The translations under genes and the position numbers were made by a program. This document shows, one piece after another, positions 932 to 56,608 of a stretch of DNA of 64,000 bases (its first letter is position 1; every line of letters begins with the position of its first letter). The notes under the pieces are model-generated. The model ran no database searches, had not been told where the DNA came from, and worked only from the letters and a program-made list of their open reading frames with translations. The stretch is from an uncultured Chlamydiae bacterium (lineage in GTDB: Bacteria > Chlamydiota > Chlamydiia > Chlamydiales > JAJFMA01): assembly GCA_963713615.1 (NCBI GenBank), contig CAVQMM010000001.1:3328001-3392000 (forward strand). The letters are read 5' to 3'.

Positions 932-1561
932 TTAGGAGATTTGGGAGGTGACTTTTTCTCGTTTTCTAGCGACAAACAGAGCTAATAACCCCATGCTACC
1001 TAATAAGGCATAGGTTCCTGGTTCAGGTACTGTGGCAAACGACAATGTATAGTGTGCAAATGCGCTTTCGCCGCCACCAAGGATGAAGCCCTTTTGATCG
1101 ATAACTAATGAATGAGGACCAAACGTTACGGACCCAGGGGCAAGTCCTAGGTCAAATACGGCATTGGAGATGACCTGACCATTTTTGGGGAATAGCTCGA
1201 AAGTAAAGGAATGGTTGGGGATGGTAGCTGATACAAGGCCAGAGTTGATCCAGGTCAGTAGAATTTCATGATCGGCTAAGTCTGCTGAAATGTGAGCTGT
1301 GACGCCAGGAAAGTCGGCCTGAAGAGCAGGCTGGTTACCGGGATATTCCACGCCAGGATTCACGACGACAGCAGGGACGAAGGCATTTCCAGGCACAGGA
1401 CTTAGGTCAAAATAGTTAGTTGGTGAAACACCTATGGTCAGTTTACCTTGAGCAGTGGTGCCTAGTAAGCCTCCATAGCCAGAATTGGGCAGGATTGAAA
1501 ATACAGCAACAGTTGCAAGGACGGTTCCGACGCCTCTAAATAAGTTTAATAAGTTTTTCAT
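932..1561 (-). CDS. PEP-CTERM sorting domain protein, paralog 2
   Basis: Signal peptide ending GYG|GLLGT; C-terminal VPEPGTYALLGSMGLLALFVARKREK. Confidence 0.92.
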   Translation of the reverse strand: MKNLLNLFRGVGTVLATVAVFSILPNSGYGGLLGTTAQGKLTIGVSPTNYFDLSPVPGNAFVPAVVVNPGVEYPGNQPALQADFPGVTAHISADLADHEILLTWINSGLVSATIPNHSFTFELFPKNGQVISNAVFDLGLAPGSVTFGPHSLVIDQKGFILGGGESAFAHYTLSFATVPEPGTYALLGSMGLLALFVARKREKVTSQIS

Positions 1562-1847: not shown

Positions 1848-2471
1848 TTAACAAATTTGATGTGCTTCTCGTCTTCTTGCAGCAAAGAGCGCGATCAATG
1901 CCATGCTGCTCAACAATAGATAGGTTGCTGGTTCAGGAACATTCACAAAAGACAGAGAATAGTGTCCGAAGGCGCTGCTCGCTGAACCCAATAGAAATGG
2001 GCCATAAGCGATCTGCACCTGGTGAGCGCTAAAAGTGACGGCTCCTGGTAAACCAAAGTCGAAGGTGACATTTGAAATTTTTTGTCCTCCTGTCGGGGAT
2101 AGATTAAAGGTGAATTTGGTAGCTGGAATCAAGTTAGGATTTATTCCAGCGTTGATCCAGGTTAACAGGATTTGATGATCAGCTATATCTGCTGACATAA
2201 AGGTTGTTAAACCAGGTATCGCTGTTTGAAGAGCGTGTGCGTTACTGGTAAATTCGACGCCAGGATCAACGACTGTGGCATTCACAGGTGCAGAACCTGG
2301 GACTGCGGACAGGTCAAAATAGTTAGTTGACGAAAGCCCGACGTTTAAAGTGCCACCTGCAGTTGTTCCCAATAGACCAGCATATCCGGAAGAAGGAGCT
2401 AGTGACACAATCGCAGCAGCTGCAACGAAATAAGCAGCGCCTTTATTGAATAAATTAAAGAACCCTTTCAT
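1848..2471 (-). CDS. PEP-CTERM sorting domain protein, paralog 3
   Basis: Start moved to MKGFFNLF (GAGGT RBS; aligns with paralog N-termini); C-terminal VPEPATYLLLSSMALIALFAARRR. Confidence 0.92.
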   Translation of the reverse strand: MKGFFNLFNKGAAYFVAAAAIVSLAPSSGYAGLLGTTAGGTLNVGLSSTNYFDLSAVPGSAPVNATVVDPGVEFTSNAHALQTAIPGLTTFMSADIADHQILLTWINAGINPNLIPATKFTFNLSPTGGQKISNVTFDFGLPGAVTFSAHQVQIAYGPFLLGSASSAFGHYSLSFVNVPEPATYLLLSSMALIALFAARRREAHQIC

Positions 2472-2565
2472 AATAACCTCACAACTTTTCATTTTTATTG
2501 TAGTTGAGTTTCAAGTCATTGTTAGTAAGGTATTACGGGCTCAAATTACAGTCTCTACAATATTT

Positions 2566-5443: not shown

Positions 5444-7087
5444 ATGTCCATCACGACGATCAGACGTCTAACAGGTTATGGAGCCGCGTTGGTGCTATTC
5501 CTATTCGCCATAACGTCCTACTACAGTGCCAAGACAGCTCCTTTGCTGCATGCATACTCGCCGATGGACGACTCCTATATTTTCATACGTTATGCAGACA
5601 ATATTTTAAGTGGTCAGGGGGTTGTATGGAACCGAGGTGGCGAGCCAACCTATGGAGCATCCAGCACTACCTACCTGGCACTTGTTACCATTGTTCGTGA
5701 ATTCCTTCGGCATAACGCCGCTCTCGTATTACAGGGATTATCTTGGGCGATGGCTGTCATTTTAGTTTTTGCTCTATCGGCTGTGGGAAGGGTGGCTTGT
5801 AAAACGGAGCTGATGCGAAAGACACCTTTTATTCTGTTTCTGACCGCTACCTTTATTTTGACTTCGCAGCCTTTCTTATATCATGCGCTGACAGGCATGG
5901 AGACAACTTTGGCGATGGTGGTTAATACGCTATTAATCGGCGCGGTCCTATGTCTATTGCGCGCGCCATCGCGTAATAAGGCCATCCTGGTAGGCTTAAC
6001 GGGCTATCTATGTTACCTTACTAGGCCGGATACAGGTCTCTACGCCGTGCTGTTTCCAGCGTTAGCGATCTGGCTATTGATTCCATCGAACCAGCGTCTG
6101 GGCTTATTTCTGTGTTGCTTCGGCAGTCTAGGCCTATTACTAGGACTGGATCTTGTATGGAAAACGGCTATTTTTGGGTCACCCTTGCCTTTATCTTATT
6201 TTGTGAAAAAAGAGGGTTTCTACAATGGCTACATTGGGCATCAGAATTGGAATGATGTCGGTTACCTTCTTGAGTTTTTTCGCCAAGCCTTCCCCTTTAT
6301 TGCTTTAATCATCTTTACAGCACAGCGACGACATTTGCGCCTTCTAGCGGTATTCCTGCTGCCTGTCCTCGTTCACTTCGCCTATTTATTCAGCGTTGTT
6401 CAAATCATGGGTAATAATGCTCGTTACTATATGCCAGCGCTGCCATTTCTTGTGATCCCAGCAATTCTGACGTTAGACGATTTTGTAGCGGATTGGGATA
6501 AGCATCTGGCAGCTAGTTGGCAATGGGTTGTGACACGTCTAGTTCTTTTGTCAGCATGTGTTATTGCACTTTCGTCTTTAGTAGGCGAAAAACTAGCGGG
6601 AGCCTATCGCATCTTCGTTCTTGAAGCACAGGATCGTGTCAATGGACGTACTCAGCAGATTGGTCACGGCCCAGAAACCAATTGGGCGGAAGCCGTAGCA
6701 GCGATGAGTCATGTGATAGCCTCATTACCTGCAGGGGCTGTTGTGGCTATGTCGGAGGTAGGGTATCCGGGTGCTGTTGCACCTCAAGTCCAGATTATTG
6801 ATCTGGCAGGCCTCAACGATAATGCTACAGCACATCAGGGCTTCTCAGTAGCCAGACTTTTGCAACGCAAGCCAGATCTCATTTGGCTTCCTCACTATCA
6901 TTATACCCGTCTTGTAGCGGCCATTCTTGACAGCAGTAGCATCCGCGATGAGTACGACGTCTATCCCAACGCTTTCGAATATGGCATAGCTATCAGAAAG
7001 GATAGTCCCTATCGTCAGCATATCACCGATGAGCTACGAGCTGCTCGGAAGGATTTTACCATAGAGAGCGCCGAGACGCAGAGATAG
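5444..7087 (+). CDS. Polytopic membrane protein, GT-C glycosyltransferase-like (AftB-like)
   Basis: DDSYIFIRYADN...GVVWN..EPTYG, GMET, TRPD, RYYMP and IIDLAGL motifs; many TM helices. Confidence 0.7.
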   Translation: MSITTIRRLTGYGAALVLFLFAITSYYSAKTAPLLHAYSPMDDSYIFIRYADNILSGQGVVWNRGGEPTYGASSTTYLALVTIVREFLRHNAALVLQGLSWAMAVILVFALSAVGRVACKTELMRKTPFILFLTATFILTSQPFLYHALTGMETTLAMVVNTLLIGAVLCLLRAPSRNKAILVGLTGYLCYLTRPDTGLYAVLFPALAIWLLIPSNQRLGLFLCCFGSLGLLLGLDLVWKTAIFGSPLPLSYFVKKEGFYNGYIGHQNWNDVGYLLEFFRQAFPFIALIIFTAQRRHLRLLAVFLLPVLVHFAYLFSVVQIMGNNARYYMPALPFLVIPAILTLDDFVADWDKHLAASWQWVVTRLVLLSACVIALSSLVGEKLAGAYRIFVLEAQDRVNGRTQQIGHGPETNWAEAVAAMSHVIASLPAGAVVAMSEVGYPGAVAPQVQIIDLAGLNDNATAHQGFSVARLLQRKPDLIWLPHYHYTRLVAAILDSSSIRDEYDVYPNAFEYGIAIRKDSPYRQHITDELRAARKDFTIESAETQR

Positions 7088-7292
7088 GAGAGAGCGAATT
7101 TTATAAAAGTTCGCTGTTTGTTATTCCAGAAGCCTATTTTACCACAGAGCACACGGAGGGCACAGAGAGGATGGCTTTTTTTGGTTCAAAGCCATCCTCT
7201 CTGTGCCCTCCCGTGTGCTCTGTGGTAAAATCCTCTTCCTCTCCTCTCTCTCTCCTATCTCTGCGTCTCCGCGCTCTCTGTGGTGAAATCCT
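7050..7292. repeat. Nested palindrome: family C arms enclosing a family B hairpin (7136-7231)
   Basis: Outer arms ~7050-7095 and ~7247-7292; inner ATTTTACCACAGAGCACACGGAGGGCACAGAGAGGATGGCTTT hairpin. Confidence 0.88.
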
Positions 7293-7523
7293 CCTCCTCT
7301 CCTTCTTCCCTATCTTTTTCCTCATCCCTTACTCCTCTTCCTCCGTTTTCTTCTCTTTCTCACGAAAATCCTTGGTGTTTTTTTTAGGGCGATGGGATAG
7401 AATCTCGGCTATCACTAGCTTCGAAAAAAAAAGATGATGAATTTCGTTGGAATTAATTGGGTTCTCTGTAATAAGTGTATTTTTCAATCTCCCTAGAAGC
7501 TTGAGGGGTTTAGATCACGTCAC

Positions 7524-10500
7524 ATGGCTACTAGAAGGCGAAAAAAAACATATCCATCGTACAAACCCATCTTAGCAAAGCTGTGGTGGGCATCCCTGCC
7601 GGTCTTTATCGCCGCACAGGGTTGGGTCTTTGCTTCACCTGTTGTTAGAGGTGGTAACGGAGATTCTTGTTTCTCCGCAGAACATTTCTGGCCAATTGCT
7701 GAGGACCTTCAAGGTTTTGAAGGGTATCCGCTCAGTGCAATTGTTGATCGTACTTCTCCACTCGTTATTCACAAGACAGAGAGAGAAGATGTCCCAGTCG
7801 CTCAAAAACCCGGTTTAGAACGGGCTGACTCCAAGCTTGATTGGTTTGCTCAGCAGAAGCCAAGCAGTGAGCGCTTTCGGCTCCCCGAAGGGATTGCGCG
7901 AACATGTACCGAGCAACAATCCAGTCATTTTGACCTTTCTGATGAGCCCCAACCTGCCAACTACCGTCCTTATCTATGCCGACAGGAGCTTGTCCAGAAA
8001 ATTGCAGCAGTGGCATCCGGTCTAGGATCCATCGCGAGCAGTGATCGCCGTACGGGTCAGTGCCTTTCTGCATTCAAGAATGCTCCGACGGCCTGGGGAC
8101 AGCTAGACTATGCCTATCGTGAATGTGCACCCACCTGCTCTTTGGGTACCATGGGAATCCCTGTTTTTGCAGGTAATGGGCCGAATACCACATATAGTTC
8201 CGGCCTAGCCACCTATGGTATTGCTTCCTCTAGTCGATATAATGTTGGCAATCAAGAAGCGAACCGTCCTAAAGGGTCGGATTTGGCGCACATTCCACAC
8301 TTCGCAAATGCTGCAGAACAACAGGTTAGCTCAGCCAAAATTGCTGAACATCGCGACGGCCAGTGGAGTGCTAAGAGCCTTCTAGCAACCAAAGAGAGTT
8401 GTCCTGAATGCATATATCATGAGCACCGCACTCCAGCCCTCCTAACGAGCGGCACAATACTATCCTCCATCGCCGAGGCGTCTCACGGTAGTCAGACTTT
8501 ATCGGATGTAGGCCCAAATGAAGCTTCTGCGTTGTCGCCGGTTTTTATCGTTTCAGCACATCGCTTTGAGTCCCATCCCAGAAGTATTCCTCATCTGATT
8601 TGTGAAGGATGCACGACTACATATGGGCAGATGGCACATGAGGAACAAGGCACCACCGGAGCCTGGGGTATCGTTGCTGCCGACAGGATCGATGTTGCAC
8701 ATCGTCTTGCACCTTTTACTACTCTGCCAAAAATGCTTCATGCGAGTTGTGATCTCTCCTCTCCATCAGCAGATGATGCGTTCGCGAGAGCTCTGGACGG
8801 CCGTGAGACACTCGCACACAAAACAAATGAATTAGTTTTAGGTGGTGGAAGGGAAAATTACGATGCTACCGACTCTATTGATCAGAGTCATTGGGCCCGC
8901 ACAGCACATCTCTTTCATCCATTGGCAGCTCAGAGAGCTGTTGCCGCCTATGCTGGTCAAGATAACTCTGCTATCTGGTCTCTTGTCGCCGCATCACCAA
9001 GATTGCTTTTAGCAGCTGCTAAGGGGCTTTCCTGTATAGGTTCTGAATGTCCGCTTCAGCTTGGTCGTCTAACTCAAGGGCATCCAACGGCAGCCCTCGC
9101 TGCTTTTGACGGCACGGATTACCGCGATATCAGTGATATCCGTCATCTGTCTCCTTTTACCACGAAGGATCTTGCCCCTACCGATCCCTGTCTGTATTGC
9201 GACAAGTCGGCCATGGGTCTTACGACTTTCGAGGATGATACACCGGAATTCTTACAGACGGCTTCGAGAACGTTTTGGAAGTTGGCTCGCGATACCAGTT
9301 TTCCTGGTGAAGATCATCATCAGGACGTCGCAAGATCTACTCCCGATCCTAGAAATTGGGCCGTTCCGGTCAAAGCAGTCGCACAGCTTGCAGCCGCTGA
9401 TAACGCAGCGCTTAACCAGCAACATTCGTCTTTACAAGCGGCGTATGAACCGCAGCAAACTCCAAACTATTGGACAGTGCTTGACCGTTTGGTAGAAGAG
9501 CATCAAGGTTCTCAGTTGGCAGGTGCTCGTTCTCATACAGGTGCGCCTCAGCAGTTTAGTGAGCAAGCTGATCAGTCATCCAGACTTGCTCGTGAGAGTA
9601 CATTTCTGGGTAGAGGACAGGGCGCTTCACGTCTCGATGGTGACATTGACGCTTTTGCATCTTCCCTTCAGTCATTGCGTCAAAAGCGCATGCCGCAGAA
9701 TCTAGAAACAGATTCTACAGCCCAAGCTGTCATTGAGCGTCAACCTCTAGCAGATCAAAGTATTTTTGCACTGGCTTACGAAGGCGCTAACCCTCGTTTC
9801 GAAGGGAACACTCCCTTAACTCGCTCCGCACAGGTGCCTTCGCACGCCTTTGATGAAAAAAATCTTATCGCCGCTGCACGTCAGGTTAGTCAAAAAATTC
9901 AGCATGATGAATTTTTAGATGCCCTTGACCTAGCATCGAGCGATAACCTAGTAGATGCTAACCTTGGAGCTGTCGTAGCTCCGGATTTTGGCAAACTTCT
10001 CTTTTCTGCCGCAGCCGATGTTCTGCCACCAGCTCGAAGTCCTGCCTATGACAAGCCAGTCGTCAGTGCCGATGCAGTAAGTCCTTTGGCTGTACGTGGA
10101 ACTATTCGAGCTAAACGCGAGGCTCAGGAAGCCTTAGCATTGGCGATGCTTGCTGATGCCAATCAAGCCTCTTTGCAATATCCCGAAGTGGATTTGCATC
10201 AGCTAAAGTTCGCTCAGGTTCTCGCGACTTTTGATGCTGATGCGGCTGCCCTGCTAGAAGCTAATGAGAAAGCGGAACTAAAGGCAAAAGAAGTTGCTGC
10301 CTTAGCAGCTATTGAAAATGCGAAAGATGCCCCTCTGCAATATGGCGACACGGATTTGCATCAGCTTAAGCTCGCACAGACGGTATCTGTTCTCGAAAAT
10401 AATGAAGCTGCGGCACTGGAAGCTAATCAAGCTACTGCCTTAGCGGCTTTAGAAGGAAAACATGCCGAGGCTTTAGCAGCGCTTGATGCAGAGCGAATGG

Positions 10501-13500
10501 CAGCATTAGAGGCCATTGCTGACAGCAAAGAGGGCCCTTTGCAATACGGCGAGACCGATTTGCATCAGCTTAAGTTTGCACAAGCAGTAGCTGCTCTTGA
10601 CGATAATGAGGTTGCCGCACAGGAGGCCAAACGAGCAGCGGTACTGGAGGCTTTAGAAGCTAAATATGCCGAGGCCCTAGCAGCTCTTGAAGCGAAGCGA
10701 ACGGTTGCGTTAGAGGCTATTGCAGATGCGAAAGTAGCCCCCTTGCAATACGGCGAGACGGATCTGCATCAGCTTAAGCTGACGCAGGCTCTAGCAGCTC
10801 TTCAGGCTAATGAAGCAGCAGCACCCGATGCTAACCAAACTGTTCTCTTGGCAGAGATGCAAGCGCAGCAGGCAGCAGCCCTGGAAGCTATTGCCGACGC
10901 CACGGAATCTCCCCTGCAATATCGAAATGTCGACCTTCATCAGCTTCAGTTGGCTCAGGCTCTTGCTGTCCTTGACGATAATCAGGCTGCAGTACTCCAG
11001 GCTCGCCAGGCTAAGGCTTTGGAAGCCTTTGAAGCTAGACAAGCCCTTGCTGTTACAGAGGTTAAACAGGTTCCTCAGCAGACCGATCATGTTCTCGTAA
11101 AACGCCAAAATGCTAGTAACGACAAGGCGGCTTCTGTTCTTCCTGATTTTTGCAAGCAATGGTTGGCTAAAGCTATTGAGAATTCATCCAATAGCAGTTC
11201 AGCCGCTCCTGCTTCTTTGACTGATCATCAAATTTATTCCATTAGCCCACTGAGCCCTGACGGTGCCCAAAAAAACAACTTCCCTCAGAAAAACAGTACT
11301 CTTGCTATCGCCAATGTGCGTCAATTGGATCAGGTTCAGCCTTCCGACTTGTTGGCGGATGTGAGCTTTCCTCAGATCATTCCTGAGCTACAATTTGGTG
11401 GCGTATTGGCCCGAGTCGTTACGCAAAAGGCTGCGGACACGGTCAGTGACCTCCTAACACTTGTTCAGCATTCTCCTTCTGCACTATCAGTAATGGCAGC
11501 GTCTGCTGGTCCTACACCAACGCAACTTGATCCGATCTTATCCCAGACTGAAGCCCAAGCCTTGGGGCTTGATATCCGAGGGCTTGGAAAAGATGGTGCT
11601 TTTAGCGCTGACGAAATGCAGATCGCTGGACGTCAGCATTCAGGCCATGTGGGAGAAGCGCATACTGCTCAAGATGCTGCTAACCTTGGTCTCTTGGCGG
11701 ATGCCGAAGAGGGTACACCGAACAAGTTGACGGCGACATCCATGGCTGGAGGCGCCGAGGCTTTACAAACTCCTAATACGGTGACTGGTTCTCTACTTTG
11801 CAAAAATGCCGTATGCTCGGGATCTACCTACGCTCCAACAGATCGCATCGGCGAGACCGGTAAACCGATTTTTGATCCTTCGCAGCTAAAGCAACTCAAT
11901 GCCAGTGTACAGCCTAAAGATATGGATGCTTCGCAGCACAAACGGCACCCCGACCTATGGACATTGTCGCCTGGTCCTGGTTCCCAAACGGTCACTCCAC
12001 ACGGCAAAGTTCCAGGAGGTTTTGACGTTGCTTCCGGTCATACAGGAGTGTCACGTCCCGTAGAGCTAGGAGACGCGGCATCTCAGGTGCGGTCGCTTCG
12101 CGATGGATATCATTACTATATCGGTGATGGCACAACGCCTTCTATGTCCACATCGCTGGATCATCTCCAGATCAGTGGGGCTTTGACGCAGTTGCCAGGT
12201 ACGACTCCCGATGATACCTTTGATGGCTTGGCCGCTGATTTCCGTACGAGGGAGAAAGTTGGTCTTTACGATACTCCAGCACAGAGCAATCAAACCGTTC
12301 TATCGTTGGCTCCTAGCATTGATTCAGCTTGGGGTGTGGATAGCCGTCGCGTGCCCAAAGAGCAGAAGATTGACTCGTCAGTCTCGTTATCCAGCAAAGA
12401 AACTCAGGGCATCTCTAATGCAATTGCCACCGTTGCGAGCACCGGTAAAGAAAGACATAAGTTTGTTAAGGTCGTTGATGTCGACGCACAGCGTCAAATG
12501 GCTAAGTCGGCTGGTAAGGTAACCAGAGCTGCCGAACATTCCAGCATCGATTCCGCCGCTAGACACCGTTTTGCGGTTGAGGTTGTCCCTCACGTAGACA
12601 ATTCTGAACCCAACAACATGCACCTGTTGGTTGGCCGTGCGTCTGGTCCTAAGAGCGAAATCTCTGCCCGCACAGACTCCTCATTCCTGATCGATGTCGC
12701 CTATGCCGCTGATGTCGCTGAGGTCGGAGCTGCACGTGAACCTGCTTCCTTCTTGTCCGTTGGCGCCCCTAGCTACCCCATCGCTGAAAGAGATTGGGAT
12801 GATTCCTGGTTGAGCAACGATTCCACCCTCGCCGTCGGTGCGGTCAATAATGACCGTGAAGATTATGACGTTGATGACAACGACTATTCCGTTGCCCTAG
12901 CGGCCCCTGGGGGAGACCCAGGTATTGATCCTTTTGGACGTAAACCCACAGCTCTCGGAGTGCGTCGCGAAGGACGTCTTTGGGATGACAATGGACCATG
13001 GTTTGATTCCGCTGATGACCACGCGGTTTCTAGAACCGAAAGGCAATCGCCTCAGATGAATAGGTATGAGGGGAGGCGACCACCTGACAAAGAGGCGGGA
13101 GCGCCCCGCTACGGGGCAAACGCCATGGCCGCGGATGAGGCCACCATAAGCAACGAAAGGGAACTGGACGGTTCCTTTCAAAAAAAAAATCGAACGGTGG
13201 AAACCGAGCGCTATCAACGTGAAGAAGATTACGGCAGCGTTCGAAGCGATTCCGAAGCCGACTTTTCCAGCGCCCCGCTTGCTGAAGCAGACGACCACGT
13301 CAAACAGCCAGACAACTCGAGTGCAGGCACGCCTAATGGCGAATGGCAGCTAGCTCCGCCCTCGAGAACTCTTACAGCATCTCCGGAGCATGTAAAGCCC
13401 ACTGTAGAAGCTCCTACTGAAGAGCTTGTAGCTCAGCAAACACTTTTTGATAGTGGTGTGCCTGCGGCTAAGCCTAAGTCTACTGAGGTACCTGTAAAAC

Positions 13501-15800
13501 CTGCTATTCCCCCTCCTGTGGAGCATCCCAAGGAGGAAGAGCAGCAGGAAGGATTGCTGATCAATTTCCGCGATGTTGCGATTACCGAATATATCCGCTT
13601 AGTGGCTCAACAGACCGGTAAGAATTTTATCTTTAATGATAAAGATCTTAACTTCAATATCACGGTCATTTCTGAACAGCCCACAACCATGGATAACCTT
13701 CTAGCGGCTCTGCTTCAGGAATTACGCATTCATGGCCTGCAGGTTCTTGAACAGGGTAATAACATCATTATCCATGCCAATGACAAGACCAAAGGACCCA
13801 CGCGCATTGTTAAAGGGGATCAAAAAGATACCCACGAGACCGCTCTTGTCACACGTGTGTTTCAGCTGGATAGCATCCCCGCCGACAAGATGAAAGCTGT
13901 CGTCACGCCGATGTTATCAGGTCAGGCATTAGTACAAGTGTTATCCGATACCAATAATTTGCTCATTACTGACTTTGGCGACAATGTTGAAAAGATTGCC
14001 GATCTGATTAATACCCTCGATCGTCCAACCACAGCCTTTCAGATTGGCCAATACGTAGGTAGAAACAACTTTATCGAAAACCTCATTCCTTTGGCGGAAG
14101 GGATCATCAGACCCTTTGCAGAAAAGCATGACGTTGTTTTCGTTCCACACCTCGCTACAAACAGTGTGTTTATCGTTTCTAGCCCAGTATTGGTCAAGCG
14201 TGCTATCGGTATCTTAGAACAACTGGATGCTCTTGAGGGGGCGACCAAAATCCTTACCCTCGAAGATCTTAGCAAGGGTGGGGCGGCTCTAACCAATCCT
14301 CAAGGCCAGGGCCCAGAGGAAATTATAGGTCCACAAAGGCCGAAGACTCAACAAGAAATCGACGAAGAAGCTCGCGCTAACGCCGAGTTGGAGAAAGCAC
14401 GTACCGGGACTTCTCCCGCAGCAAACTTACTGAAGGAAAAGGGTGAGGGCCACGAACATGAGGCCACCCCTACTAAAGTAGCTGAGCACAAGCTGCCAGT
14501 AGACCATATTACGCAGACGAAATTTTACATCCATAAGCTTCAATATCGAAAGGGAGATCAGCTCCAGTCTGCCCTACAGGCGATTGCAGACAGCCTACGT
14601 ATGAGCGAGACGGCGAACGTCGATCTTGTCAATGCCATCAATAGCGCCCAATGGATTGATTCTTCCAATTCCCTCGTAGTCACAGGTACTGCAGAATCCT
14701 TGGGTCGTGTGCAAGAATTGATCAATGAGATCGACATTCCTCTGAGACAAGTATTCCTCGAGATGTTGATCCTGGACACTACCATCACCGACTCGCTAAC
14801 TTTCAGCGTCGATTTTGGTTCGCAGTTCGGGGGGTATCAAAACGCCGGAGTCCAAGGATGGAGTGGAGATACACCAGCGACATCAACGTCGGCTAACCCT
14901 CTTTTTGCAGCTATCAAAAACTCAAGCCTAGGAGATGCTACCAATATTACTACCAGTACTGTTACTCCCTATATTATCAATGCCGCAGGCTTGATGGGTG
15001 TGACAGCTCCAGGTATGAACCTTGGCATCATCGGACGCCGTATTTTGAAGGGCGGCCAGTTCTTCAATACCGTGGGCGCGCTTGTCCAGGCCATCCATGG
15101 CGATACCCAATCGGATATTATTTTGAACCCAAAGATTATGGTAGAGGACAACCAATCTGCCGAAATCTTCGTGGGTGAAAGCCTGGCCTTCCAGACACAG
15201 AACGTTGTTAATGATTCTGGTAGTATCATCAGCCAGAACATTGAATTCCGCGATGTTGGTACCACTCTCAATGTTACGGTGCAAATCGGTAACAATGACA
15301 TCATCACTTTAGACATCAAGCAAGAGGTGAGTGCCACTATCAATACGACCTCAGGCGGTTCTGGCGGCGGAGGCTCACAGACCTCCACAAACCTTAACGC
15401 AGGTCCTGCAACTTCACAAAGTCGTACCATCACCCGTGTCCACGTGCCTAACGAATATTTCGTTGTGATTAGCGGTATGATCAGACAGGATAAAGGACGT
15501 GTCCGCGAGCAAATTCCTTGTATCGGTGGCTTACCATTCCTGGGAGCATTGAGTGCTCGAAAAGATAACACCGACAGTCGTCGAAACGTGATGATTTTCA
15601 TCAGGCCCCAAATTATTGATACAGATTGGGATTATGATGATGTAACGCGACGTCAGCAAAATGCTATGATCGATAAGGGCAGGAGAAAACCGCGTTGGAA
15701 GTATGAAGCTGATGAAGGCTTAGATTTCTTGAACTTGCCACGCATCAATGAACACTGCGAAGACGATAGCTATCTGCCTGGTTGGTGGGATGACCCTTAG
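7524..15800 (+). CDS. cdsC: Giant T3SS outer-membrane secretin (CdsC/SctC), 2758 aa, with ~2000-aa N-terminal extension
   Basis: From about residue 2010: INFRDVAITEYIRLV..NFIF..LNFNITVIS..LQELRIHGLQVLEQGNN (chlamydial CdsC-like N-domain), then LRQVFLEMLI, ILNPKIMVEDN, FRDVGTTL and IPCIGGLPFLG secretin motifs. Confidence 0.88.
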   Translation: MATRRRKKTYPSYKPILAKLWWASLPVFIAAQGWVFASPVVRGGNGDSCFSAEHFWPIAEDLQGFEGYPLSAIVDRTSPLVIHKTEREDVPVAQKPGLERADSKLDWFAQQKPSSERFRLPEGIARTCTEQQSSHFDLSDEPQPANYRPYLCRQELVQKIAAVASGLGSIASSDRRTGQCLSAFKNAPTAWGQLDYAYRECAPTCSLGTMGIPVFAGNGPNTTYSSGLATYGIASSSRYNVGNQEANRPKGSDLAHIPHFANAAEQQVSSAKIAEHRDGQWSAKSLLATKESCPECIYHEHRTPALLTSGTILSSIAEASHGSQTLSDVGPNEASALSPVFIVSAHRFESHPRSIPHLICEGCTTTYGQMAHEEQGTTGAWGIVAADRIDVAHRLAPFTTLPKMLHASCDLSSPSADDAFARALDGRETLAHKTNELVLGGGRENYDATDSIDQSHWARTAHLFHPLAAQRAVAAYAGQDNSAIWSLVAASPRLLLAAAKGLSCIGSECPLQLGRLTQGHPTAALAAFDGTDYRDISDIRHLSPFTTKDLAPTDPCLYCDKSAMGLTTFEDDTPEFLQTASRTFWKLARDTSFPGEDHHQDVARSTPDPRNWAVPVKAVAQLAAADNAALNQQHSSLQAAYEPQQTPNYWTVLDRLVEEHQGSQLAGARSHTGAPQQFSEQADQSSRLARESTFLGRGQGASRLDGDIDAFASSLQSLRQKRMPQNLETDSTAQAVIERQPLADQSIFALAYEGANPRFEGNTPLTRSAQVPSHAFDEKNLIAAARQVSQKIQHDEFLDALDLASSDNLVDANLGAVVAPDFGKLLFSAAADVLPPARSPAYDKPVVSADAVSPLAVRGTIRAKREAQEALALAMLADANQASLQYPEVDLHQLKFAQVLATFDADAAALLEANEKAELKAKEVAALAAIENAKDAPLQYGDTDLHQLKLAQTVSVLENNEAAALEANQATALAALEGKHAEALAALDAERMAALEAIADSKEGPLQYGETDLHQLKFAQAVAALDDNEVAAQEAKRAAVLEALEAKYAEALAALEAKRTVALEAIADAKVAPLQYGETDLHQLKLTQALAALQANEAAAPDANQTVLLAEMQAQQAAALEAIADATESPLQYRNVDLHQLQLAQALAVLDDNQAAVLQARQAKALEAFEARQALAVTEVKQVPQQTDHVLVKRQNASNDKAASVLPDFCKQWLAKAIENSSNSSSAAPASLTDHQIYSISPLSPDGAQKNNFPQKNSTLAIANVRQLDQVQPSDLLADVSFPQIIPELQFGGVLARVVTQKAADTVSDLLTLVQHSPSALSVMAASAGPTPTQLDPILSQTEAQALGLDIRGLGKDGAFSADEMQIAGRQHSGHVGEAHTAQDAANLGLLADAEEGTPNKLTATSMAGGAEALQTPNTVTGSLLCKNAVCSGSTYAPTDRIGETGKPIFDPSQLKQLNASVQPKDMDASQHKRHPDLWTLSPGPGSQTVTPHGKVPGGFDVASGHTGVSRPVELGDAASQVRSLRDGYHYYIGDGTTPSMSTSLDHLQISGALTQLPGTTPDDTFDGLAADFRTREKVGLYDTPAQSNQTVLSLAPSIDSAWGVDSRRVPKEQKIDSSVSLSSKETQGISNAIATVASTGKERHKFVKVVDVDAQRQMAKSAGKVTRAAEHSSIDSAARHRFAVEVVPHVDNSEPNNMHLLVGRASGPKSEISARTDSSFLIDVAYAADVAEVGAAREPASFLSVGAPSYPIAERDWDDSWLSNDSTLAVGAVNNDREDYDVDDNDYSVALAAPGGDPGIDPFGRKPTALGVRREGRLWDDNGPWFDSADDHAVSRTERQSPQMNRYEGRRPPDKEAGAPRYGANAMAADEATISNERELDGSFQKKNRTVETERYQREEDYGSVRSDSEADFSSAPLAEADDHVKQPDNSSAGTPNGEWQLAPPSRTLTASPEHVKPTVEAPTEELVAQQTLFDSGVPAAKPKSTEVPVKPAIPPPVEHPKEEEQQEGLLINFRDVAITEYIRLVAQQTGKNFIFNDKDLNFNITVISEQPTTMDNLLAALLQELRIHGLQVLEQGNNIIIHANDKTKGPTRIVKGDQKDTHETALVTRVFQLDSIPADKMKAVVTPMLSGQALVQVLSDTNNLLITDFGDNVEKIADLINTLDRPTTAFQIGQYVGRNNFIENLIPLAEGIIRPFAEKHDVVFVPHLATNSVFIVSSPVLVKRAIGILEQLDALEGATKILTLEDLSKGGAALTNPQGQGPEEIIGPQRPKTQQEIDEEARANAELEKARTGTSPAANLLKEKGEGHEHEATPTKVAEHKLPVDHITQTKFYIHKLQYRKGDQLQSALQAIADSLRMSETANVDLVNAINSAQWIDSSNSLVVTGTAESLGRVQELINEIDIPLRQVFLEMLILDTTITDSLTFSVDFGSQFGGYQNAGVQGWSGDTPATSTSANPLFAAIKNSSLGDATNITTSTVTPYIINAAGLMGVTAPGMNLGIIGRRILKGGQFFNTVGALVQAIHGDTQSDIILNPKIMVEDNQSAEIFVGESLAFQTQNVVNDSGSIISQNIEFRDVGTTLNVTVQIGNNDIITLDIKQEVSATINTTSGGSGGGGSQTSTNLNAGPATSQSRTITRVHVPNEYFVVISGMIRQDKGRVREQIPCIGGLPFLGALSARKDNTDSRRNVMIFIRPQIIDTDWDYDDVTRRQQNAMIDKGRRKPRWKYEADEGLDFLNLPRINEHCEDDSYLPGWWDDP

Positions 15801-16752
15801 GATTGGACTTAGGTTTTTAGCTCTTTGGTGTCTGCTGATGACTCTGACGGGGTGTCAGTCTAACTCCTGTTTGTTGGAACCAACGATCACCTATTGTCCT
15901 CCTAGGCGTGTCATTACAGGGCTGCCCTCCCCATTTCCTAAGTTGAATATCGAAGAACGCAAGCAAGATTGGGGTAAGGAACTCGCTATTGCTGACCATT
16001 TTGCTCGCGACTTCGATTTCTTTCGGGCTATCACAGCCTACAAAAGAGCCTATTTCCTGATTCCCAAGGAGGCTACGGACCGTCGCCTTCAGATTCAATA
16101 CAGCATCATGTTGTCATACTACCTTGGTTGTCGGTATAAGGACGCTGTAGAGACCTTTGAGACAAGTGATCTGGTCGACGCTGGACCTTCGTTTCCGGCT
16201 TTTGGCGACCTTTTGATTCTATTATATGATTCCTACAAGCAAGATGAGCGTTGCGACAGGGCTGATGCTGTGCTGGAGCTAATAAGGAAGCACTCCCCAG
16301 AAACAGCCGCTGATCTAACTCTCTATAAGGCTGTAACTGAGGGAGACATCGCTGCGGCTGAGAGCCTCGCAGAGGCTCATGCTGCCTCAGAAACTATGAC
16401 ACCTTGGCTAGACGGATACTGCTGCCAAGCTAAGTCTGTGCGCACAGCGCAAACTCTTAATGCCGTACTTCCTGGTGCCGGTTATTTCTATGTGGGGCAA
16501 AAGCAATCGGCTTTGACCTCCTTTCTGCTCAACACGTTATTCACAGCTGCTGCAGTCTACTTCTTTGATGAAGGCAACATCGCTGCTGGCATTATTACCA
16601 CCAGTCTTGAGGCAGGGTGGTACATCGGCGGCATCAACGGTGCTGGCTTAGCTGCTAAAGAATACAATGAACGTCTCTTTGAAGGGCTTGGCAAAGAGCT
16701 CCTATGTGAAAACCGCCTCTTCCCTGTCCTCATGTTCGAGTTCGCCTTCTAA
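15790..16752 (+). CDS. Probable lipoprotein with TPR-like helices and C-terminal hydrophobic domain
   Basis: Lipobox LTGC; TPR-like DFFRAITAYKRA; NAVLPGAGYFYVGQ hydrophobic domain; start overlaps the cdsC stop region. Confidence 0.75.
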   Translation: MTLRIGLRFLALWCLLMTLTGCQSNSCLLEPTITYCPPRRVITGLPSPFPKLNIEERKQDWGKELAIADHFARDFDFFRAITAYKRAYFLIPKEATDRRLQIQYSIMLSYYLGCRYKDAVETFETSDLVDAGPSFPAFGDLLILLYDSYKQDERCDRADAVLELIRKHSPETAADLTLYKAVTEGDIAAAESLAEAHAASETMTPWLDGYCCQAKSVRTAQTLNAVLPGAGYFYVGQKQSALTSFLLNTLFTAAAVYFFDEGNIAAGIITTSLEAGWYIGGINGAGLAAKEYNERLFEGLGKELLCENRLFPVLMFEFAF

Positions 16753-16754
16753 AG

Positions 16755-17043
16755 GAGAGGATTAGGAATTTTACCGCCGAGACACCGAGACACAGAGGTA
16801 GGAGAGAGAGGATTTTAGGAAATTGGCTGTTTGTTATTGCCAGAGGCCTATTTTACCACAGAGTACACGGAGGGCACAGAGAGGATGGCTTTTTTGTGGT
16901 TGGACGTGTCATATGCAGCAATACCATTACCACAAAAAAGCCATCCTCTCTGTGCCCTCCGTGTACTCTGTGGTAAAATCCTCATCCTCTCTCTCCTATC
17001 TCGACGTCTCCGCGTCCTCTGTGGTAAAATTCCTAATCCTCTC
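16755..17043. repeat. Nested palindrome: family C arms enclosing a family B hairpin (16850-16979)
   Basis: Inner perfect 51-bp inverted repeat (16850-16900 and 16929-16979); same GCTGTTTGTTATT linker as the 7.1-kb copy. Confidence 0.9.
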
Positions 17044-17186
17044 TTCCTTATCGTCAGAGGCCTCTCTACCGCAAAGTAAAATTTAAATTGCCAAGAATTC
17101 CTGTTTTTTAGAGTCTATACGTGGTTTCAATCATTTGAACTGAATTCTTACAAAATAGTTGAAAACGCTCCGCCAGTAGGTGTTGA

Positions 17187-20100
17187 ATGCTACATAGACA
17201 TGTTTTTATCGTTGCACTGTTTTGCTTCTTTGCCGTTGCAATGCAGGGAGAGGAACCGACGAATATTCTCCCTCACGCAGAGGTGAGCGGGGACTCCTCA
17301 ACCCTCGTAGCAGGGTGTGTGAATGTCATTACCGGTAGCTATAGCGATGCTCAGCTGGATTTTGTCCTCGTCGGTCCTGAGGCACTCCCGTTTCAGCGCT
17401 TTTACTGCTCTGCTGACTGGAAAGGAGGAAGCTTCAGAGATGGCTGGAATCACAACTACGCCTACGAAGGCAAAATCGATCATGAGAACGGCAAGTACTG
17501 GTACGCTAGGATTCCTGAAAATTCCGGCGGATCGATGCTGTACTTCAGTCATAACAAAGTAAAAGTTTGGGGCGAAAAAAAAGAACACGTTAGGTATGAC
17601 GACTTCATCCAATTCGACACCAATAAAGTTAAATTCCTAAAGGGGTTGACCAACATAGGCCACGGAGCCATCGGCGCGCGCACAAACCTGCGAAATCAAA
17701 CCGCTGATTGGAGGCCTAATCAAGAACAGTTTGTCGTTCACCAACCTGATGGAACGACAAGGTTCTACAAGGTAAAGAAGAAAGAACATACCCCCAAAAT
17801 TACGCATGAAAAGCGTCCTAGTGGCAACCAAATTCATTATCAATACAACAACAACGAACTCTCTAAGGTCACCGCCCTTGACGCTACAGGCAAAGTCACC
17901 TTTGGCTCGCTCTCCTTTACCCACACAAATTGGAAGGAGAGCTTTCCGGTTTTAACAGTTACCGGCAGTGATGGGCAAAACGTTCGGTACACCTTCCATA
18001 AAAGCAAACGTAGAAAAGAAAAAGAGGGCGATTGGCGCTTTTACGTCTACCACGTCAATAGGTCCACAGGTCCTCCAGAAGAGTATAAATACAGCTCTCC
18101 TGATAAGCTGCATAACGAGCAGATCATACAAAAAAGTCGACCTGAGGGACGCATTCAACAGATTCAATACTACCAACCGGGAGATAATTATGTCGGTGAT
18201 ATTCTTGTAAAATGCTCGGACGATCCTGAAAAAGATACCAGACCCGGTAAAGTTAGCCTCCTGAAAGCTCCCATGGGCCATGACGCGACTCTTCATATTA
18301 CTCACCGCTTCTTGTACAACCACGGCCCCAGTCACAATAACTTTAAGGAATATACATCTGGTATTGTTGACGTCTTGGATGCTGTGAATCACAAGGTGCG
18401 CTATTGCTTCTCTGGCAAGGACCGTATCACAGCCATAGAGCGATATACCGGCCAAAACGTCCCTAAAAAGTATAGCACTGAAAAATTCTACTGGGGAAGC
18501 CATAGAGACCAGGAGTGTAATTTGACGACCAAGGCTTTGCTCGATGCCAATGGTGTTGCACGGTCCTGTCGCTACCTAGAATATGACCAACACCACAATG
18601 TCATTGCTGAACATATTGTGGGAAATCTCAGAGGTAAAAATCCTGCCGGTCCCGCCTTGGATGATCTGGGAATTCCCCATTATAATGGCGGTGATCGCTA
18701 CACGATACAACGCTCCTACTATCCTCCGCAGGCTTTTAACTTGCTGAAGTCGGAATTGCTACCCAATGGACGTCTGACTGAATATAGATATTGGGGAAGT
18801 ACACCCAAACTCCAAGCTAAGCTTGTCAGTCACAATGGCCATACGATCGCACGTCAATTTCATGAATATGACCAGTTTGGTTCTCCTCTTAAAACAATCG
18901 TAGATGATGGAGAGGCGGCTACAAGTAATGAACTTCTAGGCGTCACTGTAAGGCGTATTACCTACTTGACTCCTCGAGTTCAAACACCCTGCATGGGGCT
19001 TCCTGAAGTCATAGCCGAACATTATTACGATACCCATACACGCACTGAACACCACCTCAGTGAGGTGGCTAATATCTACTCTAGAGAGGGACGCCTCACA
19101 GACCAGCATCACTTAGATGCTGATGACCTCTTGCGTTATTCCCTGCATTGGGAATATGACCCCATGGGCAATGTGACCTTGGAACGCAATGCCATTGGAC
19201 AAATCACTCAGCGCTGGTTTGATCCAAACGGTAACAAAATCAAGGAACAAGGCCCTTGTGAGCTTTACCACACTGAATATGCCTACGACTATTCTAATCG
19301 ACTAGTCTCTGAAAAGAAGGTCTGTACGGATGGTCAATGCTATTCACAGAGCTATCGCTATGACCTCTTAGGTAATCGCATTGCTTCCATCGATATCTTT
19401 GGTAACGAGACCAACTATGAGTACGATGAATTTCATCGATTGGTACGGACCACTCTACCACCTACAGTCGATGCCAACGGCAATCTTGTACGGCTCAAAA
19501 CCCATAGGAACTATGATATTGCTGGCAACGTCATCGCTGAAACAGATGTGATGGGCAACGTCACGCGCAAGGAATTTAATATTCGCGGACAACCCACGTC
19601 CATTCAATATCCTGATGGGACTAGCGAGCACTTCGAATATTACCTGGACGGCTCTCTCAAATGCAAAACCGCTCAAAATGGTACATCGACGCACTTTCAC
19701 TATGATGTCCTTGGCAACGTTATTCGCAAGGAGACCTTTTCCTCTGCCCAAGAGTTGCTTAGTACCACTACAGCGACCTATCGCGGCGCCTTGCTACTTT
19801 CCGAAACAGATGCTAATGGCAACAGCACCCACCATGCCTACGATGCCGCAGGAAGGCCTATTAAGGTGACCACGGAGATAGGTTGGAGTCGTTTCGAATA
19901 CGACAGTCTGGGCCGCAAGTGCAAAACCATTCAATGGATAGGCCCGAGCGAAGACGATGTTCAGGTATCATATGTAGAATACGATCTCCTCAATAGAGTG
20001 GTCGAAGAACGCTTGGAGGACCGCGCTGGCACTGTCTTCGATCGTAGTCTCTATGAATATGATTCAGCCGGTCATCGTTGCGCTGTCACCACCTTCTCTG

Positions 20101-23648: not shown

Positions 23649-25229
23649 TTAGTGGGATACAGCCGATTTGAAATTCTCAAAAGAATTGCCAGAAGGGTCC
23701 TGCTGTGATTTAGCCCATTGATCTGGTAGTAGTTCGTAAAGTTTTTGTGAGCTGTGACTCATTAGTCTACGCATGACATCTTCAAGATAGTCTCGAGGGT
23801 TTATTCCCAGATTCCGGCAGGTTTGAACTAAAGACAGTATTACCGCTGCGGCTTCGCCCCCTTCTTCATTGCCAATAAATAGCCAATTCTTGCGGCCAAT
23901 TGCCAATGGACGAACTGCACGTTCGGCTACATTGTTATCTAGGCGTGCGTATGGATGGTTTAAGTAGTTTTTTAGATGAGGAATCAGACCTAAAAAATAC
24001 CCTAGAGCTTCTCGAAATTTGGATTTAGGCAGGACTTTTCCTTCGGATAGACGTTTTTTGATGGCGTTGATTAGCTCGTCTATAATCGGCCCCTCTTTCA
24101 GCTGCCGTATGCGTAATCGCTCTTCTTCAGAGCGTGCCCAAGCAATTCTTTCTAGCATAAAGAGGTAGCGAATCTTTCGTAAAACCCATTTGCGAAATGG
24201 GGGATCTCCAGTTTCCGCCTCTATGAATTTTCTGCGAATATGCGACCAGCAGGGACATAAAATGATTTTCTTCTTATTTGCCAGATCAATATAAGCCCCA
24301 TATTTATCTGAATGTACCACTCCGGTATACCCTGCAAGTATTTCCGAGGCATTTTCATGTTTGCGGTTCGTCCGAAAATTGTAGACTCTATAGGCTGGGT
24401 TCGTATGTTTGCCCCCAACCAACACCCACATGTAAGCTTGATGGACTTTGCCCTTTCCCGGAGAAAGCATATCCACAGGACTTTCATCGATAAACACATT
24501 TCCGCTTTGCAAAATTTGCTTTGTTAGTTCCTCATGAAGAGGTTTTAATGCCTGTCCACAGCGTACAACCCAATTACAAAGGACTTGCCTGCTGATCCCA
24601 ATTCCTTCCCTAGCAAGAATTTCTGAAATTCTATAGAGCGGTAGATGGTCGGCAAATTTCTTTGTTAAAATGTCTGCTAAAAAGCTCTCATCTGCTTGAC
24701 AACGCGTAAGCAAACCTTCTGGAAGGGGAGCAGTTCGGATTCCACCTTCACTGTCTTGAGGAAGAGCATATTTTGGCCGGATGATTTCTTTGATAAAATA
24801 GCTTCCTGGCTTATGAGCCAGTTTTTGACTGACTTCTTCACCGATCTTGATCAGTTGCTGACCAGTCTCAGGACAGATCTTTTCAGATTCCGGTAGATCG
24901 ATTATTTGACGTTCTACGGGTAGGTCTGGGGGCAGTGTGATTTTGTCTTTACCAGTACGCTTGAGTTGTCGGCGCTCATGAGCAGGAATGGTTGTTTTCT
25001 TTTCCGGTTTCACATTCTTAGGTGGTTCAAAACCGGGTAAGAAGGGTTGACTTTCGTTGACTGGGTCTACAAATTTTTCGGCACGTTGTCCAAAAACCTG
25101 CCTTTTTAGCCAATCCAATTGCTCCTTGAGATAAGTCAGCTCATTCTGTAGCTGCTCGATTATGCTGTCCTTACGAGCGCTTTCGGCAATCAGATCTTGG
25201 AGAGTACGTGTTGTAGGTGCCATATGCAC
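23649..25229 (-). CDS. tnpC: IS66 DDE transposase
   Basis: FGQRAEK, KKFADHLPLYR, IDESP, HSDKY, CWSHIRRKF and DNNVAERAVRP..GRKNWLF motifs. Confidence 0.95.
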   Translation of the reverse strand: MHMAPTTRTLQDLIAESARKDSIIEQLQNELTYLKEQLDWLKRQVFGQRAEKFVDPVNESQPFLPGFEPPKNVKPEKKTTIPAHERRQLKRTGKDKITLPPDLPVERQIIDLPESEKICPETGQQLIKIGEEVSQKLAHKPGSYFIKEIIRPKYALPQDSEGGIRTAPLPEGLLTRCQADESFLADILTKKFADHLPLYRISEILAREGIGISRQVLCNWVVRCGQALKPLHEELTKQILQSGNVFIDESPVDMLSPGKGKVHQAYMWVLVGGKHTNPAYRVYNFRTNRKHENASEILAGYTGVVHSDKYGAYIDLANKKKIILCPCWSHIRRKFIEAETGDPPFRKWVLRKIRYLFMLERIAWARSEEERLRIRQLKEGPIIDELINAIKKRLSEGKVLPKSKFREALGYFLGLIPHLKNYLNHPYARLDNNVAERAVRPLAIGRKNWLFIGNEEGGEAAAVILSLVQTCRNLGINPRDYLEDVMRRLMSHSSQKLYELLPDQWAKSQQDPSGNSFENFKSAVSH

Positions 25230-55250: not shown

Positions 55251-55319
55251 CTTATGTTAAAATGTAGTTATAGGAAAAGTAGGTCCGTTTGAGATCATAT
55301 TGAATGAAATGAGGTGATC

Positions 55320-56565: not shown

Positions 56566-56608
56566 TCGCTAGTTAATACACATGACCTCTTTTGAAGAGG
56601 GGAGACTT

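What the first reader, a model, noticed from the sequence alone, without database searches (positions are those of the whole stretch)
10140..11060. Five LQY...DLHQL repeats with 11-residue helical spacers inside CdsC
Seen: LQY(P/G/R)xxDLHQL(K/Q)x(A/T)Q occurs five times (Gln codons at 10176, 10338, 10542, 10746, 10917), spaced 54, 68, 68 and 57 aa. The spacers are built from units such as ALAALEGKHAE/ALAALDAERMA. Inference: a segmented coiled-coil rod with recurring knuckles whose copy number could tune length. I do not recognise this repeat as a named family.
Basis: partly seen in the sequence, partly recalled or inferred. Interest (0 to 1): 0.7.

Follow-up and report, generated by a model that had tools for sequence, protein, structure and literature searches.

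The report
Helical repeat in giant chlamydial secretin
Five old copies of a 54-68 residue repeat, found in no other protein searched, sit in the 2,000-residue front extension of an unusually large outer-membrane ring protein of an environmental chlamydia's injection needle; they are predicted to form long capped helices that likely act as a stiff spacer, and close relatives fill the same slot with unrelated repeats or none.

Summary
Observation confirmed: LQYxxxDLHQL occurs five times at the stated codons, 54/68/68/57 aa apart, in a 2,758-aa ORF (7524-15800). The ORF is the type III secretin CdsC: its orthologues follow pkn5 in 16 of 20 loci, and the genome's other secretin lies with gspE/gspF. 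The copies are old and under purifying selection (pS 0.51-0.77, dN/dS about 0.2). Spacers are Ala-rich with 8/11/19-residue periodicity and no heptad signal. AlphaFold2 predicts a loop, then a long helix starting at TDLHQL, which fits an N-cap. No homologue or named family was found in any search. The repeat lies in a hypervariable slot (about 270-700 aa) of a family-wide 1,000-2,000-aa N-terminal extension. The sister species has a 33-aa repeat there, another a 17-aa repeat, three have none. So it is a species-private spacer, likely a segmented hendecad helical rod. Bundling between chains is inferred, not shown, and tuning of length by copy number has no support. The more notable thing is the giant secretin itself, the longest frame listed in a 140-genome survey and three times the length of C. 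trachomatis CdsC.

The parts
7524..15800 (+). cdsC (sctC): giant type III secretion secretin, 2758 aa, about 297 kDa
   Evidence: ORF; Pfam N0, Secretin_N and Secretin; orthologue synteny; mass
7524..7634 (+). Likely Sec signal peptide (basic n-region, h-region, AQGWVFA|S), judged by eye
   Evidence: Similar N-termini in 7 of 8 kin printed; P0011 differs; no predictor was run
7635..9503 (+). Conserved Cys-containing N-terminal block of the extension (aa 38-660), no known family
   Evidence: Matches in 4 of 6 family genomes at 26-40%; 9-26 Cys in the first 660 aa of 8 proteins; no Pfam or PHROG hit
9504..11549 (+). Hypervariable slot between anchors PNYWTVLD (aa 647) and EAQALGL (aa 1343)
   Evidence: No blastp hit in any kin for aa 660-1340; slot about 270-700 aa
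10131..11063 (+). Five-unit Ala/Leu/Glu/Gln-rich repeat (the finding), about 33 kDa, net charge about -26
10173..10205 (+). Motif 1, LQYPEVDLHQL; the predicted helix from the Asp runs 10191-10319 (43 aa)
10335..10367 (+). Motif 2, LQYGDTDLHQL; predicted helix 10353-10523 (13 + 4x11 aa)
10539..10571 (+). Motif 3, LQYGETDLHQL; predicted helix 10557-10727 (13 + 4x11 aa)
10743..10775 (+). Motif 4, LQYGETDLHQL; predicted helix 10761-10898 (13 + 3x11 aa, exactly one hendecad shorter, with one internal Pro)
10914..10946 (+). Motif 5, LQYRNVDLHQL; predicted helix to about 11060
11550..13538 (+). Second conserved block of the extension (aa 1343-2005), acidic and low in structure-forming residues, no known family
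   Evidence: 29-46% identity in family kin; no Pfam or PHROG hit
13560..13769 (+). GspD-like N0 domain
   Evidence: PF21305, aa 2013-2082, E 7.8e-13
13851..14030 (+). Secretin_N domain (best of 2 stretches)
   Evidence: PF03958, aa 2110-2169
15099..15620 (+). Secretin domain
   Evidence: PF00263, aa 2526-2699, E 4.3e-33
15748..16752 (+). Conserved 334-aa gene that follows cdsC; no Pfam or NCBIfam match
   Evidence: Homologue beside the secretin in 19 of 20 loci

Best explanation
The five units are a species-private repeat in the 2,000-residue N-terminal extension of the type III secretin CdsC, and they likely form a segmented helical rod that acts as a stiff spacer, each unit being predicted as a short loop followed by a capped Ala-rich helix that would bundle with the same helix of neighbouring ring subunits. 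Shown: the repeat, its age, purifying selection, its periodicity, its place in a hypervariable slot, and the identity of the host protein. Predicted: the loop KxxPLQYGx, then a 43-57-residue helix starting at [TV]DLHQL, where Asp would be the N-cap, Gln the N3 of a capping box and Leu the N4. Inferred: after Sec export the secretin ring holds 12-15 extensions parallel and in register (ring size recalled). The narrow Leu/Ala stripe (hendecad a = polar, d = Ala, e = Leu, h = Leu/Ile) would then pack as a straight to right-handed parallel bundle, with the loops as flexible joints. Fully extended it would be roughly 36-45 nm long, holding the Cys-containing N-terminal block away from the ring. The slot seems to need a spacer, not this sequence, so each lineage has filled it with its own expansion.
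For: dN/dS between units is 0.2 overall, 0.12 over the 15-codon motif and 0.15-0.28 in the helices, with pS 0.51-0.77. AF2 gives helix 2-10, loop 11-19 and helix 20-67 at pLDDT 81-93, and breaks the helices at every motif in the whole region (mean pLDDT 54). Over 13 eleven-mers, position 6 is hydrophobic in 10, position 9 in 11, position 8 is Ala in 11, and position 10 is acidic in 9. Ala in hendecad cores is described for FilP/Scy (PMC9858780, passages). Periods above 3.63 give right-handed coils (PMC4786415, passages). The length differences of 11 and 14 residues both keep helical phase (weak, two events). Asp N-cap with Gln at N3 and an N'-N4 patch is a described cap (PMC11101637, passages). 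The slot holds a 33-aa repeat in sister G001, a 17-aa repeat in G003, and nothing repeated in P0005, P0007 or P0010. Unequal helix lengths suit in-register packing between chains better than folding back within one chain (inference).
Against: No interaction between chains is shown; bundling rests on sequence pattern alone. The net charge of about -26 with only 25 Lys/Arg in 325 residues would repel parallel copies. AF2 is unsure of the loop and of the helix-to-helix angle (pLDDT 55-59, pTM 0.46; pTM 0.28). Lag-8 and lag-11 signals can come from the duplication history of 11-mers. N' is Thr in 3 of 5 units, a poor hydrophobic staple. The N-cap does not explain why LQY is invariant. Relatives manage with Pro-rich or no repeats, so the rod is not needed for the machine in general. 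Where the extension lies, and whether it stays attached, is unknown.
Confidence: 0.5

Rival explanations
1. The units fold back on each other within one chain into a compact antiparallel helical bundle; the LQY loop is a turn whose Leu and Tyr cap the bundle core, as PolyDIV domains pair within a chain.
For: Invariant LQY suggests tertiary packing. A 9-11-residue Pro/Gly loop can reverse the chain. Ala-rich narrow stripes suit close antiparallel packing (recalled). PolyDIV is a precedent for intragenic amplification giving intrachain pairing (PMC9858780, passages).
Against: Helix lengths are unequal (43, 57, 57, 46, about 40) and the number of units is odd. AF2 gives no confident tertiary fold (pTM 0.28), and Foldseek finds no match to that low-confidence model.
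Confidence: 0.2
2. The repeat is a tolerated expansion in a permissive linker: free amphipathic helices with no fixed partner, selected only to stay soluble and exportable.
For: It is private to one species among all searched. The slot is short in P0005 and P0010 and missing in P0007. Many chlamydial CdsC extensions carry unrelated repeats.
Against: Eight motif residues are invariant while their synonymous sites have pS 0.60 (the residues were picked for invariance, so only the pS is informative). A consistent Leu stripe and phase-keeping length changes point to a packing constraint.
Confidence: 0.15
3. The extension is surface-exposed or shed, and the variable slot is a host-facing stalk, as in fibrous adhesins, that diversifies between species.
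For: [quoted passage not shown] Conserved blocks around a lineage-specific repeat slot are typical of surface proteins (recalled).
Against: The extension precedes N0, the domain furthest from the outer membrane in secretins (established topology). No autotransporter or other export domain was found. No similarity to the N-terminal regions of CdsC outside the family was detected.
Confidence: 0.1
4. Copy number of the unit is a ruler that sets basal-body length to the width of the periplasm.
For: The extended length (about 36-45 nm, estimated at 0.15 nm per residue) is of the order of the 34-nm C. trachomatis basal body. Other chlamydiae lengthen CdsC by stacking 8-16 N-domains, so length matters in this phylum.
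Against: The repeat is upstream of N0 and so outside the N0-to-secretin axis, whose length is ordinary and constant in the family (479-493 aa). The copies are too diverged to slip. No strain or relative with another copy number was found.
Confidence: 0.03
5. The 11-mers are amphipathic lipid-binding helices, as in apolipoproteins or synuclein, that lie on a membrane leaflet.
For: 11/3 periodicity with Pro-punctuated segments; the resemblance is recalled.
Against: The region is strongly acidic, lacks flanking Lys, and has a narrow Ala-lined stripe. No Pfam match to such families appears even at E up to 10.
Confidence: 0.02

Closest known systems
Chlamydia trachomatis CdsC (type III secretin, 921 aa, with a unique 250-residue hydrophilic N-terminal domain; PMC4682100, PMC3459982)
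   Same: GspD-like N0, N-domains and secretin domain; scores better with type II than with SctC models, as published for chlamydial CdsC; orthologues lie after pkn5; there is an extra N-terminal region.
   Different: 2,758 aa with a 2,007-aa extension; no detected similarity of the extension to N-terminal regions outside the family; internal repeats; gene displaced about 37 kb upstream of cdsD in this genome.
Hendecad coiled coils of FilP/Scy, and PolyDIV (DivIVA-like superfamily; PMC9858780)
   Same: Ala-rich 11-residue stripe; a short Tyr/Asp loop motif that caps the helix after it; tandem intragenic copies.
   Different: The motif GY[DN]xx[QE]V[DN] is absent; no heptads follow the motif; no Pfam match; exported part of a secretin rather than a cytoplasmic division protein.
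Alpha/beta coiled coils with beta-layers (PMC4786415)
   Same: Long helices interrupted by short recurring motifs that end in an N-cap residue.
   Different: The beta-layer consensus motifs are absent; the break is 9-11 residues with Pro/Gly, not a 2- or 6-residue insertion; the background is not heptad; a trimer is not shown.
Other repeat-filled CdsC extensions seen here (G001 33-aa, G003 17-aa, P0012/G006 44-aa, G026 and P0013 68-aa)
   Same: Private tandem repeats upstream of N0; G001 and G003 use the same slot.
   Different: No sequence relation (hhalign probability 0.5% against G001; no HMM hit). The others are richer in Pro, Ser or Cys and have lower helix propensity (mean ddG 0.62-0.76 against 0.36).

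Membership tests
Chlamydial CdsC (SctC) | N0 + N-domains + secretin domain of type II-like sequence | tested here: met
   Pfam PF21305, PF03958 and PF00263 above cut-off; TIGR02517 270 bits against TIGR02516 60 bits, both under cut-off
Chlamydial CdsC (SctC) | Orthologues lie in the cdsN-O-P-Q-pkn5-cdsC cluster | tested here: met
   pkn5 homologue directly upstream in 16 of 20 loci; not in G001, G017 or G022, and the contig ends in G002. In this genome the gene is displaced from the cluster at 53442-63012.
Chlamydial CdsC (SctC) | Distinct from the type II secretion GspD | tested here: met
   The genome has 2 secretins; the other lies in a locus with gspE (over cut-off) and a gspF-like gene
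Chlamydial CdsC (SctC) | Chlamydia-type 250-residue N-terminal domain | tested here: inconclusive
   An extension is present, but blastp finds no match to 12 other CdsC proteins or the G006 locus ORFs except 21 aa in G005; distant homology is not excluded
Chlamydial CdsC (SctC) | Forms the outer-membrane ring of a working injectisome | not testable with these tools
   cdsD, cdsN, cdsO and cdsQ are intact in the window; assembly needs experiment
Hendecad coiled coil | 11-residue a/d/e/h core pattern with small core residues | tested here: met
   mixed with an 8-residue element (periods 3.72-3.98)
Hendecad coiled coil | Continuous alpha-helix | tested here: met
   Predicted only: AF2 helix 20-67, pLDDT 81-93
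Hendecad coiled coil | Two or more helices packed as a bundle | not testable with these tools
   Needs SEC-MALS or a solved structure
DivIVA-like / PolyDIV | Motif GY[DN]xx[QE]V[DN] followed by heptads | tested here: not met
   No pattern match; lag 7 not enriched; no Pfam hit
Alpha/beta coiled coil (beta-layer) | Consensus [aliphatic]ATK[polar][DE] or KADK..VYTK, a 2- or 6-residue insertion in heptads | tested here: not met
Any catalogued repeat family | Significant profile or sequence match | tested here: not met
   Pfam best E 0.047, far under cut-off; PHROGs best 0.021; NCBIfam best 0.0014, 18 bits against a cut-off of 459; PDB best 0.085; 1.84 billion representatives give itself plus one chance hit
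Copy-number (contingency) repeat | Near-identical copies that vary in number between strains | tested here: not met
   DNA identity 56-72%; no joints or indels in 8 runs laid, with patchy cover

The most novel reading that the evidence does not exclude
One family of environmental chlamydiae builds an injectisome whose secretin ring carries a 200-kDa-per-subunit collar, about 3 MDa per ring. A Cys-cross-linked N-terminal cap is held out on struts whose length and stiffness each species sets with its own repeat. In this species the strut is a new kind of jointed, N-capped, right-handed (8+11) coiled-coil fibre about 40 nm long.
Probability: 0.2. Interest if true: 0.72.

Novelty: new variant of a known kind. 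Interest (0 to 1): 0.4.

Why it matters
The repeat alone is an orphan example of a non-heptad helical repeat, useful to coiled-coil specialists but private to one species. Its setting matters more. The chlamydial secretin is known as an oddity at 921 aa, yet here it reaches 2,758 aa. The comparison shows two separate routes to giant CdsC in the phylum: a long repeat-prone N-terminal extension in this family, and stacks of up to 16 N-domains in others. That makes the open question of what the Chlamydia-specific part of CdsC does, and which density it forms in tomograms, more testable, because a 210-kDa extension per subunit should be plainly visible. Five paper searches listed no paper on such giant CdsC; subscription journals are mostly not covered and no supplements were read.

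Tried and rejected
Homologue searches for the repeat, all negative beyond the protein itself. Word-indexed 5.8-billion set with region 860-1185: 1 hit (itself) among 7985 candidates. The same set with the five-unit alignment: 0 among 7995 (weak evidence). Full HMMER scan of 1.84 billion representatives: itself plus P0002, a Ser/Thr-rich repeat protein sharing only QYGETD, rejected as chance. ESM Atlas: no usable hit. 401 phylum genomes: only G000 and one E 0.008 hit lacking the motif. Metagenome contigs: 0 of 31 pattern hits confirmed. Genome contigs: 1 of 25, lying in a frame with stop codons on both sides, rejected.

Complex prediction of three copies of units 2-3 gave no answer (score 0.00, no controls folded); it is evidence neither way. 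Foldseek on both models gave nothing at E 0.001; the models are low-confidence or a single helix, so this says little. The wider structural search was not obtained.

The Atlas search of the N-terminal block gave SET-domain clusters at 0.85-0.86, under the usable level, and was rejected. A by-eye likeness of G001 'KDLGQIVA' to 'TDLHQLKL' was not supported. BLAST self-comparison printed no repeats even for the window's protein and was replaced by a lag scan. My N-domain HMM missed the repeats of G018, G102 and G021, so those counts are floors.

Expression was not shown: the RNA-library contigs had no silent-stretch control. Three look-ups of earlier findings returned nothing and one returned an unrelated note. 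The review PMC3125583 was not held. An assembly artefact was rejected: the frame is open for 2,767 codons, the copies are diverged, and the 54-aa spacing is bridged by a contig of another run.
Full report
Observation. The finding lies in one ORF, 7524-15800(+), of 2,758 aa. LQYxxxDLHQL occurs at aa 884, 938, 1006, 1074 and 1131, with Gln codons at 10176, 10338, 10542, 10746 and 10917 and spacings of 54, 68, 68 and 57, exactly as reported. In 5000 shuffles no 5-mer recurred more than 3 times. No other ORF of the genome has the motif. Contigs of RNA-library runs X1, X2, X3, X4 and X13 and of DNA run X6 match pieces of the repeat without a difference, and no joint or indel is listed in the 8 of 17 runs laid. 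Cover is patchy, the runs may belong with the source sample, and transcription is not shown.

The host protein. Pfam finds N0, Secretin_N and Secretin domains in the last 750 residues and nothing before. The genome has two secretins. The other lies with gspE and a gspF-like gene. Orthologues of this one follow pkn5 in 16 of 20 fetched loci and precede the same 334-aa gene in 19 of 20. It is therefore CdsC. Its better score with type II models agrees with the published origin of chlamydial CdsC (PMC3459982, passages and one section). In this genome and in G001 the gene is displaced from pkn5. C. trachomatis CdsC has 921 residues, including a unique 250-residue N-terminal domain (PMC4682100, passages and Discussion). 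Here 2,007 residues precede N0, beginning with a signal-peptide-like stretch conserved in kin (by eye).

Anatomy of the repeat. Each unit is a loop of about 9-11 residues (KxxPLQYGx) and an Ala/Leu/Glu/Gln-rich stretch. From the Asp, units 2 and 3 read 13 + 4x11 residues, unit 4 reads 13 + 3x11 and unit 1 reads 21 + 2x11. Across the 13 eleven-mers, positions 6 and 9 are large hydrophobic in 10 and 11, positions 5, 7 and 8 are Ala in 7, 9 and 11, and position 10 is acidic in 9. Lags 8, 11 and 19 are enriched, lag 7 is not, and the best periods are 3.72-3.98. By the published geometry these are straight to right-handed periodicities (PMC4786415, passages), and Ala-rich cores are typical of hendecads (PMC9858780, passages). 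AlphaFold2 with the five-unit alignment predicts helix, loop, then a helix from T-D-L-H-Q-L at pLDDT 81-93, with the loop at 55-59. The single-sequence model of the whole region breaks at every motif but is low in confidence. [TV]-D-L-H-Q-L fits an Asp N-cap with Gln at N3 and Leu at N4 (PMC11101637, passages). That accounts for half of the invariant motif; LQY remains unexplained. The region has net charge about -26.

Age and selection. Unit pairs are 56-72% identical in DNA and 46-62% in protein, with pS 0.51-0.77. dN/dS is 0.2 overall, 0.12 in the motif and 0.15-0.28 in the helices. These pS values approach those between this genome and its sister G001 (0.74-0.84). The array is thus old and constrained, not a slipping contingency repeat.

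Distribution. No relative of the unit was found in the 5.8-billion set, 1.84 billion representatives (the one extra hit is a chance QYGETD repeat), the ESM Atlas, 401 phylum genomes (one E 0.008 hit without the motif), metagenome or genome contigs, PDB sequences, Pfam, PHROGs or NCBIfam. The extension itself has relatives. Blocks aa 1-660 and 1340-2005 match family kin at 26-46%, while aa 660-1340 match nothing. This slot is about 700 aa here, about 470-480 in P0004 and G003, about 370 in G001, about 270-280 in P0005 and P0010, and missing in P0007. Of 8 close giant proteins (P0003 left out as a duplicate of G001, G002 as a duplicate of P0007), 3 have strong repeats: this one, a 33-aa repeat in G001 and a Pro-rich 17-aa repeat in G003. 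Two have weak ones and 3 have none. G001 is the sister of this protein (support 100/99), yet the two repeats are unrelated. This one alone has high helix propensity.

How it likely works. After export, the ring would hold all extensions parallel and in register. Capped, Ala-lined amphipathic helices of unequal length suit in-register packing between chains, giving a jointed rod of about 36-45 nm if extended, which would space the Cys-containing N-terminal block from the ring. This last step is inference. Against it are the high negative charge, the uncertain loop geometry, and the fact that kin do without it. The rivals are a folded-back bundle within one chain (0.2), a tolerated expansion (0.15), a surface stalk (0.1; the tomography paper leaves an outer ring to an extra secretin domain), a copy-number ruler (0.03) and lipid binding (0.02). 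The ruler idea is weak because the repeat is upstream of N0, the N0-to-secretin span is constant in the family (479-493 aa), and no copy variant exists in the data.

Comparison and verdict. The host is a member of the CdsC family. The repeat works most like an Ala-rich hendecad coiled coil with capped breaks, but it fails the defining motifs of DivIVA-like/PolyDIV proteins and of beta-layer coiled coils. I file it as a new variant of a known kind. The giant secretin is the longest of 150 matches listed from 140 genomes (11 weaker matches not listed, one genome not scored). Other families reach 1,300-1,940 aa by stacking N-domains instead. Paper searches listed nothing on giant chlamydial secretins; some searches were seen as listings, figures and supplements were not seen, and most subscription journals are not covered. 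Interest 0.4: a real orphan repeat, private to one species, that points to an undescribed family-wide secretin extension.

Noticed in passing
window 7524-15800; L031-L036; P0003-P0012: All 6 family genomes have a giant CdsC extension (about 1,000-2,000 aa before N0; G002 is cut by its contig end and G006 is split). This genome's 2,767-codon frame is the longest of 150 matches listed from 140 phylum genomes; the small-genome family f37 has 804-954.
   Followed up: partly
L062 (G131), L064 (G083), L065 (G076), L067, L049, L050, L071, L072: A second route to giant CdsC: a short N-terminus but 8-16 stacked N-domains, 1,000-1,630 aa between N0 and the secretin domain against about 490 here. This lies on the channel axis and is a better candidate for a change in basal-body length than the present repeat.
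   Followed up: partly
window 7050-7315 and 16752-17049: A palindromic element of about 270-290 nt flanks cdsC and its downstream gene on both sides in direct orientation (75% identical). It is full-length only at these 2 of 146 matching loci in the genome. It may be linked to the displacement of the cassette from pkn5; it was not found at the six kin loci tested.
   Followed up: partly
window 63012-64000; L031: cdsC no longer follows pkn5 in this genome or in sister G001; a widespread palindromic repeat family (482 bins) follows pkn5 instead.
   Followed up: partly
L036:4736-13619: In G006 the giant cdsC is in two frames (1,702 + 1,291 codons), while relative P0012 is one frame across both; this is a frameshift or an assembly error. 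It has 44-aa Cys-containing repeats in the extension.
   Followed up: partly
L042 (G037), G144, L037 (G017): Tandem duplicated cdsC genes; in G017 one copy is interrupted by a TGA.
   Followed up: no
window 10271-10882; L040; P0013: Three unrelated CdsC extension repeats share a 68-residue period (this one, G026, P0013), and G003's unit is 17; no sequence link was found. Probably coincidence.
   Followed up: partly
window 932-1561 and 1848-2492 (minus strand): Two PEP-CTERM proteins above the Pfam cut-off; by recall these are not a usual chlamydial feature.
   Followed up: no
window 28231-32440 (minus strand): A Sel1-repeat protein next to a 793-aa protein with a eukaryote-type RhoGAP domain (E 3.9e-12), a likely secreted effector.
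   Followed up: no
window 17187-22706; 23649-25229; 34182-36390: A 1,839-aa RHS/YD protein and two IS66 transposase loci lie between cdsC and the rest of the secretion cluster.
   Followed up: no
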